DNA of 63,996 bases, filler included, from Gonapodya sp. JEL0774 (lineage: Eukaryota), in assembly GCA_027604505.1 (NCBI GenBank). It is 12 parts of 12 records of this genome, joined end to end, with 100 filler letters (N's around TTAATTAATTAA, not from the genome) between each part and the next. Parts side by side here need not be neighbours in the genome. Positions count along the whole stretch, not along the records: positions 21,649 to 26,939 come from JADIIX010000744.1; 11 more parts are not named here. One strand, given 5' to 3'. The notes under the pieces are model-generated. The model saw only the letters and a list, made by a program, of their open reading frames with translations, was not told where the DNA came from and did no database searches. The first letter of the stretch is position 1; every line of letters starts with the position of its first letter. Shown one piece after another: positions 21,649 to 23,573 of the stretch. Position numbers and translations under genes: made by a program.

Positions 21649-23573
21649 CTACGGTCCAAAGATCCTCTCTACGCTCTTCCAGTCCCTGGGTGGGACTTCT
21701 TCTCTTCTCTCCACGTTCGACACCTCTGTCTCGAACTTGATTGAGCTCTGCTGTCGTCCCGAAGCACCGCCCAATCTCTATTTCGAGACGGGGCAAGGGT
21801 CCGCTTTCACCAATGGAGCCGATCATGGGGTTGATATGGTCACTCTGGAATGCAGAAATTATGGACTTGCGAGAGCGTTGACGAAGAAGGCGGGTAAATG
21901 GACGATGGTGAACACCGTCGCCGGTTTCATTGGGTAAGTTGAATGGACCTCGCACACCATATGTGATCAACCAGAACTTTACTGGATGTTTTTTAGCCCC
22001 GAAGTATTCCGCACCTCGGCCCAACTTCTGAGAGCGTGTCTTGAAGACCTGTGCGCTGGCAAGTTGCACGGATTGATCATGGGACTGGACGTCTGCTCTA
22101 CTTATCACGTAAATATAGTATCACTGCCTTTTTAATTGTGATTTGATGCTTATTTCCTCTGAAATCTGAAGATGGGAGTCGAGATCGATGAGTTGGTAGG
22201 TTCACACCGCGCTAGACTTGTCTGATAGTTGCCACTAGTGCTGACCTCGTGCGGCACTGTCAAAGGATGATATCCAAGAGAGCATCCTCCCTGCAGGTCC
22301 CGGATTCTACATGGCGGTGGCGGGCAAGTCTGACCCCATGCTTTCATGTATGTGGTGCACTTGCTTCAATGTGAGGTGGCCTGTATAACGCTCAAGGGCG
22401 GTCTGTTCCAACCATGTACCAGATCTCACCACCGACTTCCGCGACATCGCCCGATTGCGCCACAAGTACAACATGGGTGTCTCCCCCGCTCTTGAACCCG
22501 TGCTCGCTTCCATAGGCGCTGCTGATCCATCTACCCACAAACTGACTCGTTCGGGCGACACGGCGTACATGTACCTCCAATATCGCCTCAGAAAGGGAGA
22601 CAAGAGAACCGAGGAGGAGATCCTGGAAGAAGCTCGAGCGCAACTCAAGGAGTTTCAGAAGCGAGGTTTGGATATCGGGTACGGGTGCACAGAGGATTTC
22701 CGCCCTCCCGGAGTTATCGACGGACCTAAGCGCGAGATCTACCGGGCAGCCAAGCGAGCAATCTACGATACCTTACCGACGGATTTCGTGGACGAGCTAA
22801 GAAGGTTCCGATTTGACGGGCAAGGGGGTGACGGTGGAGGTCCCGACGGAGAAGCTCTCGTCGTGTCGACTCAAGCGAGGACACGAGAGGAGTACATTCT
22901 GAAACCCGTCACCGGAGAACACCTCGACGAGGTGGCAATTTTGAAGCTCAAGTCTCGAGGAGCCAACGTGGCTCGTACATTGTCGGAGATGGACGTCCCA
23001 CCGACCAACTTGATCCAAGTCGTGATTTCGGACGGTTTGAACTCGGAGTCGGTATCGGCGCCCGGGCATCTGTTTCCCTTCTTGAGGGAGCTCGAGGCGA
23101 ATCTGCGAGCTGCCTCTACAGGACAGGGAGCCGGCGATCCATCCCCAAGCACCGTAGCACAGAGATCTGTCCATCACGTCTTCGTTTCGACACTCGTCGT
23201 GGTGGAGAACGCCCGTGTGCGTGCCGGATACGCCGCGGGCCGGGACATCGTCTCGTCCCTCGTATCCGAAGCCGCCGCCTACGCCACCACCTCGGCTTCT
23301 GGCACCCTCCGCCTCCCCCGGTACTTCACCACGGTACACATCATCGGTGAACGCCCAGGAAACGGCCAAAACACCTTCTCGGCCTACATCGCGTGCGTCA
23401 CGATGGAGCAGTGGATGGCGGGTGAGGTGGACCACGGGGTGGTGTCGTTGGTGTCTGGCGTGAGTGCGTCGGCTATGAAACCGGAGGCGGCCGCGAGGGA
23501 TGTGGCGGCGGTGATTAAGAGGAAGGTTGGGGCGGGAGGAGCGGCGGGGAAGGGGAAGGGTGCTGCTGCGTAG
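21649..23573 (+). CDS. eutBC: Ethanolamine ammonia-lyase, fused EutB (large) and EutC (small) subunits, 4 visible introns, 5' truncated
   Basis: EutB motifs LFQSLGGT, YFETGQGS, GVDMVTLECRNYGLAR, VNTVAGFIGPE, LEDLCAGKLHGLIMGLDVC and DPMLSYLTTDFRD. EutC motifs TQARTREEYILKP, QVVISDGLNS, ARVRAG and IIGERPG lie in the same frame. GT-AG introns 21934-21996, 22109-22171, 22196-22265 and 22348-22422 restore the frame exactly. Confidence 0.93.

What the first reader, a model, noticed from the sequence alone, without database searches (positions are those of the whole stretch)
21649..23573. Spliceosomal-intron-containing B12-dependent ethanolamine ammonia-lyase in a eukaryote
Seen: diagnostic EutB and EutC motifs interrupted by four 63-75 nt GT-AG introns, including a 24-nt micro-exon at 22172-22195. 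Removing them restores conserved motifs (FIG|PE, STYH|M, MLS|Y). The same contig carries an intron-containing FAM72 gene, so bacterial contamination is unlikely. Known: EAL is an adenosylcobalamin radical enzyme (ethanolamine to acetaldehyde plus ammonia) characterised in bacteria; the usual eukaryotic B12 enzymes are methionine synthase, methylmalonyl-CoA mutase and class II RNR. Inference: a domesticated, probably horizontally acquired gene giving this organism an additional B12-dependent route to nitrogen and carbon from ethanolamine. I cannot confirm from here that it is unreported.
Basis: partly seen in the sequence, partly recalled or inferred. Interest (0 to 1): 0.9.

Follow-up and report, generated by a model that had tools for sequence, protein, structure and literature searches.

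The report
B12 ethanolamine-splitting enzyme in aquatic fungi
A swimming-spore fungus (genus Gonapodya) carries an intron-containing gene for a one-piece version of a bacterial vitamin-B12 enzyme that likely splits ethanolamine into ammonia and acetaldehyde; relatives occur in five other fungal genera, which would add a fourth B12-dependent pathway to the three described in fungi.

Summary
Four GT-AG introns (63, 63, 70, 75 nt) and a 24-nt exon splice to an open 550-aa frame. All four junctions are gap-free against 245 of 246 homologs. The gene is a single-chain EutB-EutC fusion, and its first ~247 residues are cut off by the contig end. A Gonapodya database model is identical. Full-length orthologs exist in G. 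prolifera and five Blastocladiomycota genera, with active-site residues and the EAL fold kept. It most likely is an adenosylcobalamin ethanolamine ammonia-lyase of bacterial origin that lost the export signal common in bacterial fusions; no activity or expression is shown. It is not unique to this organism. Fused homologs are also named in Anaeramoeba, Andalucia and Paratrimastix, with a fragment in Cyanophora, and one origin for all is rejected. A 2024 Anaeramoeba paper probably already reports a eukaryotic EAL (its note was unreadable). I found no paper on a fungal EAL; the 2021 fungal B12 survey does not mention it.

The parts
21650..21933 (+). First visible exon (5'-truncated by the contig start at 21649); EutB barrel, Pfam positions 232-320; holds the codon equal to E. 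coli Glu287 (21785-21787)
21934..21996 (+). Intron 1, 63 nt, phase 2, GT-AG, in-frame stop
21997..22108 (+). Exon 2; EutB, holds the Asp362-equivalent codon (22088-22090)
22109..22171 (+). Intron 2, 63 nt, phase 0, GT-AG, 30% GC, in-frame stops
22172..22195 (+). 24-nt micro-exon, 8 codons
22196..22265 (+). Intron 3, 70 nt, phase 0, GT-AG, branch-like CTGAC 25 nt from its 3' end
22266..22347 (+). Exon 4; EutB, holds the Met392-equivalent codon (22311-22313)
22348..22422 (+). Intron 4, 75 nt, phase 1, GT-AG; splits the codon of the Tyr404-equivalent residue
22423..23573 (+). Last exon: end of EutB, linker and the whole EutC-like domain (SDGLN 23028-23042, ARVR 23211-23222, GERPG 23346-23360), stop at 23571-23573
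21649..26939 (.). The contig that carries the gene (5291 bp), bounded by N-linkers
   Evidence: same length as the contig of P0121

Best explanation
This is a spliced nuclear gene of a Gonapodya fungus encoding a single-chain EutB-EutC fusion that likely works as an adenosylcobalamin-dependent ethanolamine ammonia-lyase, turning ethanolamine into ammonia and acetaldehyde. Shown: gene structure, fusion, conserved residues, orthologs in six genera of zoosporic fungi. Predicted: an EAL alpha-like barrel followed by a beta-like cobalamin-binding domain. Inferred from bacterial EAL: AdoCbl sits between the two domains; substrate binding triggers Co-C homolysis helped by the Glu287 equivalent; the adenosyl radical takes an H from ethanolamine; ammonia is released; host dehydrogenases would use the acetaldehyde. 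Inferred: the enzyme is cytosolic, because the export signal common in bacterial fusions is absent; AdoCbl comes from the fungus's own adenosyltransferase acting on scavenged B12; the substrate comes from phosphatidylethanolamine of food or of the cell itself. The gene likely came from a bacterial fused EutBC early in fungal history or earlier, then gained introns and was lost in most fungi; the donor is not identified.
For: Splicing tests. P0121, a Gonapodya model, equals the spliced product from residue 12. G. prolifera P0001 is full length (792 aa), 435 of 539 aligned residues identical, 184 of the first 200. Named orthologs: 3 Allomyces, 2 Blastocladiella, Catenaria, Sorochytrium, Paraphysoderma. 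E. coli EutB R160, Q162, N193, L225, S247, E287, V326, F329, D362, M392, L402, Y404 are kept in 8 of 8 full-length fungal proteins aligned; the window has all eight that fall in its span. Glu287's role is from PMC4413051; the roles of the others are recalled. Seven core motifs are present in 13 of 13 eukaryote-group proteins; EutC motifs align with split EutC. P0001 model: pLDDT 86; versus E. coli EAL alpha Z 48.2, rmsd 2.0 over 432 residues, against Z 21 for diol dehydratase. The window's own model versus EAL beta: Z 20.9, rmsd 3.3-3.8 over 232-236. G. prolifera, A. macrogynus and Catenaria encode cobalamin adenosyltransferase, MCM and class II RNR (PMC8085122 Table S1). Export-like N-termini: 119 of 215 other fusions, 1 of 13 in the eukaryote group (crude test).
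Against: No assay of any fused EutBC was found. NCBIfam cut-offs are not met (P0001: EutB 475 of 554 bits, EutC 28 of 230). The R160/Q162/N193 region is not sequenced in this strain. Flanks of bacterial fusions showed no EutA, EutT, shell or aldehyde dehydrogenase family among 44 of 88 ORFs scanned from 18 loci; only one amino-acid permease and one alcohol dehydrogenase. The group holding the fungal proteins has SH-aLRT 95-97 in fast trees but is unresolved in the careful 34-row tree. No named bacterial sister was found in 823 sampled genomes.
Confidence: 0.75

Rival explanations
1. The fused family is an AdoCbl radical lyase with a different main substrate, for example 2-aminopropanol or another vicinal amino alcohol.
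For: Below NCBIfam cut-offs; the EutC part is about 21% identical to E. coli; positions E257, L294, S295, M307 and Y365 differ from E. coli; bacterial fusions are mostly orphans with export signals.
Against: All recalled substrate-contact positions are unchanged; alpha fold matches at rmsd 2.0.
Confidence: 0.13
2. The fungal-type gene is an ancient eukaryotic gene (or moved between eukaryotes), not a separate bacterium-to-fungus transfer. Same enzyme function, different history; not exclusive of the best explanation's chemistry.
For: A Cyanophora fragment (P0136) and several unnamed proteins with intron-like read-through fall in the same group; no named bacterium is in that group.
Against: One clade of all 11 named eukaryote rows is rejected, AU p 0.0003. 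The nearest sister in fast trees includes unnamed proteins with bacterial-type signal peptides. Fungal monophyly is not rejected, p 0.34.
Confidence: 0.3
3. In this strain the gene is a decaying relic or is not expressed.
For: The 5' 247 codons are unseen; no expression data.
Against: Open frame over 550 codons, four clean introns, 92% identity to G. prolifera over the first 200 residues; the break coincides with the contig end.
Confidence: 0.06
4. Bacterial contamination or a mis-assembly.
For: Short contig (5291 bp) in a fragmented assembly; the family is mostly bacterial.
Against: Four spliceosomal introns; an intron-bearing FAM72-like neighbour; orthologs on 0.1-2.5 Mb contigs of other fungi; Blastocladiales sequences form one supported clade.
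Confidence: 0.01

Closest known systems
Ethanolamine ammonia-lyase EutB/EutC of E. coli, Salmonella, Listeria (PDB 3abo, 5ysr, 7xrm, 2qez; Pfam PF06751 + PF05985)
   Same: Both domains, fold, Glu287 and the other active-site positions, EutC motifs.
   Different: One chain instead of two; nuclear with spliceosomal introns; no operon or microcompartment; 36% (alpha) and 21% (beta) identity; below NCBIfam cut-offs.
Bacterial single-chain EutB-EutC fusions (Myxococcota, Bacteroidota, Planctomycetota, Desulfobacterota, Acidobacteriota)
   Same: Same fused architecture and motifs; about 40% identity.
   Different: About half of them carry export-like N-termini, the eukaryotic ones do not; the fungal proteins lie outside the two clades with named bacteria. 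I found no biochemical study of them.
Fused EutBC of Anaeramoeba flamelloides (P0139), Andalucia godoyi (P0133), Paratrimastix pyriformis (P0130)
   Same: Eukaryotic, fused, motifs intact. PMC11550330 reports two B12 enzymes in A. flamelloides new to eukaryotes and lists the EAL heavy-chain family in both strains.
   Different: They group with the main bacterial fused clade (100/100), a separate origin from the fungal ones.
B12 enzymes of early-diverging fungi: MetH, methylmalonyl-CoA mutase, class II RNR (PMC8085122)
   Same: Same organisms, same cofactor supply.
   Different: That survey covered eight other families and has no mention of ethanolamine in text or supplement.

Membership tests
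Ethanolamine ammonia-lyase (EutBC) | EutB large-subunit domain (PF06751) above the Pfam cut-off | tested here: met
   76 and 49 bits in two exons, cut-off 25
Ethanolamine ammonia-lyase (EutBC) | EutC small-subunit domain (PF05985) above the Pfam cut-off | tested here: met
   59.8 bits, cut-off 25.8
Ethanolamine ammonia-lyase (EutBC) | EAL alpha barrel and beta fold | tested here: met
   predicted models: Z 48.2 to 3abo_A (G. prolifera ortholog), Z 20.9 to 3abo_B and 7xrm_B (window's protein)
Ethanolamine ammonia-lyase (EutBC) | Glu287, Asp362, Met392, Tyr404 (C-terminal half of the active site) | tested here: met
   Glu287 role, others recalled
Ethanolamine ammonia-lyase (EutBC) | Arg160, Gln162, Asn193 (N-terminal half of the active site; roles recalled) | tested here: inconclusive
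   outside the contig for this gene; kept in 8 of 8 full-length fungal orthologs
Ethanolamine ammonia-lyase (EutBC) | AdoCbl-dependent conversion of ethanolamine to acetaldehyde and ammonia | not testable with these tools
   needs an assay
Canonical two-subunit EutB/EutC (NCBIfam NF011649, NF003971) | Separate subunits scoring above the curated cut-offs | tested here: not met
   fused; P0001 475 of 554 and 28 of 230 bits; the bacterial fusion P0297 also misses the EutC cut-off
Bacterial single-chain EutBC | EutB and EutC in one reading frame | tested here: met
Bacterial single-chain EutBC (exported type) | N-terminal Sec, Tat or lipoprotein signal | tested here: inconclusive
   N-terminus missing in the window; no hydrophobic signal stretch in any of the 13 eukaryote-group proteins incl. 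G. prolifera by a crude test
Spliceosomal-intron nuclear gene | GT-AG introns whose removal restores a conserved frame | tested here: met
Spliceosomal-intron nuclear gene | Spliced transcript observed | not testable with these tools
   no run was listed

The most novel reading that the evidence does not exclude
Zoosporic fungi (Monoblepharidomycota and Blastocladiomycota), with a glaucophyte and other unnamed eukaryotes, share an old lineage of single-chain B12 radical lyase taken from an exported bacterial enzyme and turned cytosolic. It lets them grow on ethanolamine nitrogen only when bacteria supply B12, without a microcompartment or EutA reactivase. EAL would then be a fourth widespread eukaryotic B12 enzyme, gained at least twice.
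Probability: 0.45. Interest if true: 0.75.

Novelty: new variant of a known kind. Interest (0 to 1): 0.6.

Why it matters
Reviews list three B12 enzymes in eukaryotes, and the fungal B12 survey asks whether B12 use in these fungi is operative or a relic. A conserved EAL gives a direct test: growth of Allomyces or Blastocladiella on ethanolamine as sole nitrogen, with and without B12. It would tie aquatic fungi to B12-making bacteria through a catabolic route. It also offers a natural single-chain EAL for enzymology, and a case of a likely exported bacterial enzyme domesticated inside eukaryotic cells.

Tried and rejected
No whole genome was held, so the 5' part and B12 helper genes of this strain were not searched beyond the window. 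No sequencing run was listed; this is no evidence either way. Donor search: the GTDB scan covered 3 of 64 parts, best segments 33-43% identical; the metagenome scan likewise, 35-48%. Protein P0278 matched 31 of 823 genomes from three phylum samples, all at 43-48%, none of the fungal-type group. The 'shorter' search gave no new named eukaryote beyond Cyanophora among the 120 listed of 180. ESM Atlas returned only bacterial EutBC clusters. EutA: in 10 genomes with fused EutBC, 8 had weak matches over only 45-151 of 475 positions and none was full length; these are probably another ATPase of the same fold (inferred). One search used a wrong family accession and is void. The careful mixture-model tree did not finish; for the careful tree 20 of 54 rows were dropped, and groups for the AU tests were chosen after seeing trees. 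The EAL structure paper was not held, so most residue roles are recalled. Linkage to the amidase gene upstream is rejected: it lies on another contig. No complex prediction was run: cobalamin is not an offered ligand and the oligomer exceeds the size limit.

Full report
Setting. The window is 12 contigs of about 5.3 kb joined by N-linkers; the gene lies on 21649-26939 and begins at the contig's first bases. Other contigs carry eukaryote genes such as a Prp8 C-terminus and Utp25 (87 ORFs scanned). No whole genome was held.

Observation. Four GT-AG introns of 63, 63, 70 and 75 nt and a 24-nt exon give an open 550-aa frame ending at 23573. Three introns are multiples of three but hold in-frame stops; the fourth shifts frame. 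Each called intron is the best-scoring of 24-47 alternative boundary pairs, and 245 of 246 full-length homologs align across all four junctions without a gap. Intron 4 splits the codon of the Tyr404 equivalent. Pfam finds EutB in exons 1 and 2 and EutC in the last exon, so this is one fused protein. The neighbour is an intron-bearing FAM72/YPEH2ZP gene.

Identity and spread. Database model P0121, labelled Gonapodya and partial, equals the spliced product from residue 12. G. prolifera has a 792-aa ortholog, 435 of 539 aligned residues identical; the window lacks about 247 N-terminal residues, and they are not elsewhere in the window. Named fungal orthologs: Allomyces macrogynus, A. arbusculus, A. 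javanicus, Blastocladiella emersonii, B. britannica, Catenaria, Sorochytrium, and Paraphysoderma with four accessions. No other fungal group was named in the lists, but each search listed only its best 120 and two scored only about 8,000 candidates. Outside fungi, fused proteins are named from Anaeramoeba flamelloides, Andalucia godoyi and Paratrimastix pyriformis, plus a 398-aa fragment from Cyanophora paradoxa.

Mechanism. Against E. coli EutB, twelve active-site positions are kept in 8 of 8 full-length fungal proteins aligned, and the window has the eight in its span. Glu287's role in Co-C cleavage is from a passage of PMC4413051; the other roles are recalled, as the structure paper was not held. 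Some neighbouring positions differ (E257, L294, S295, M307, Y365). EutC motifs align with split EutC proteins. The G. prolifera model (pLDDT 86) matches EAL alpha at Foldseek E 5e-33 and Z 48.2, rmsd 2.0. The window's own model (pLDDT 87) matches EAL beta at Z 20.9. NCBIfam cut-offs are not reached. G. prolifera, A. macrogynus and Catenaria encode cobalamin adenosyltransferase (PMC8085122 supplement rows), so AdoCbl supply is plausible. Bacterial EAL needs EutA to swap damaged cofactor (PMC5821096 passages); no full-length EutA was found in 10 genomes with fused EutBC, so how these enzymes are reactivated is open. Flanking genes of bacterial fusions give little support for ethanolamine use (44 of 88 ORFs). 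By a crude test 119 of 215 other fusions have a twin-arginine or hydrophobic N-terminus, against 1 of 13 in the eukaryote group (12 named, one unnamed twin) and at most 3 of 82 split EutB. Earlier AI notes on other genomes report the same export signals (leads only). I infer a cytosolic enzyme.

History. Fast trees give three fused clades: one of Acidobacteriota and Gemmatimonadota; a large mixed bacterial one that also holds Anaeramoeba, Andalucia and Paratrimastix; and one with all fungi, Cyanophora and unnamed proteins (support 95-97). The careful 34-row tree keeps the first two at 100/100 and the Blastocladiales subtree, but leaves the third group and Gonapodya unresolved. AU tests: all 11 named eukaryote rows as one clade rejected (p 0.0003); fungi as one clade not rejected (p 0.34); the third group not rejected (p 0.49). 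So eukaryotes gained fused EutBC at least twice, and one gain for the fungi is allowed but not shown. The unnamed sister with signal peptides looks bacterial but could not be placed.

Literature. Ten searches (listings and abstract starts) showed no paper on a fungal EAL. Passages of PMC7435645 and PMC2667541 list three eukaryotic B12 enzymes. PMC8085122 has no 'ethanolamine' in text or supplement. PMC11291939, on gene transfer in early fungi, has none either. PMC9172201 looked for eutBC in Tilletia and found none. The Andalucia and Preaxostyla genome papers do not mention it in main text. The Andalucia supplements searched had no hit; of 8 hits in one Preaxostyla file I saw 2, both unrelated. 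PMC11550330 and its preprint state that A. flamelloides has two B12 enzymes not found in a eukaryote before, and its data table lists the EAL heavy-chain family in both strains. I take it as likely that a eukaryotic EAL is already in print there. Several fungal records already carry automatic EutB names. The library lacks most subscription papers.

Verdict. Real, conserved and very likely functional: a single-chain, intron-bearing EAL lineage in zoosporic fungi. It is probably not the first eukaryotic EAL, but is apparently undescribed in fungi and easy to test. New variant of a known kind; interest 0.6.

Noticed in passing
window 1-63996: The window is 12 unrelated contigs sorted by length and joined by N44-linker-N44, so neighbours across a linker are not linked.
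   Followed up: yes
window 23860-24787 (-): FAM72/YPEH2ZP zinc-finger gene with introns 24449-24361 and 24171-24066, 237 aa, tail to tail with the EAL gene.
   Followed up: yes
window 25787-26600 (+): A gene starting with a signal-peptide-like stretch, then Cys-rich pieces and a long proline run; no Pfam hit in the pieces scanned.
   Followed up: partly
window 18049-20837 (-): Intron-rich amidase gene on the preceding contig; not linked to the EAL gene.
   Followed up: partly
window 4275-4697, 6306-7015, 9317-10722, 10828-11571, 29623-30698, 32760-33248, 34920-36007, 41753-42559, 47167-48291, 56935-58864: Other contigs: short-chain dehydrogenases, Cas1p acyltransferase, Prp8 C-terminus, Utp25, band-7, GST, photolyase/cryptochrome, multicopper oxidase.
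   Followed up: no
P0006, P0014, P0278, P0003 and others: About half of bacterial fused EutBC proteins start with Tat, Sec or lipoprotein-like signals, hinting at a periplasmic B12 radical enzyme.
   Followed up: partly
P0126, P0127, P0143, P0123, P0125: Unnamed fungal-group proteins break off or read through at places that look like introns, so more eukaryotes probably carry the gene.
   Followed up: partly
P0128: 1110-aa protein with a 400-aa N-terminal extension (C2-domain-like by eye, not tested) fused to EutBC of the main bacterial clade.
   Followed up: no
P0388, P0280: Paraphysoderma has four accessions for the protein; a near-identical unnamed copy lies on a 2553-nt contig, barely longer than its coding length, as a transcript would be (inference).
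   Followed up: no
P0150, P0151, P0153, P0156, P0162: Proteins of 684-753 aa whose EutB part groups with split-type EutB; possibly independent fusions.
   Followed up: no
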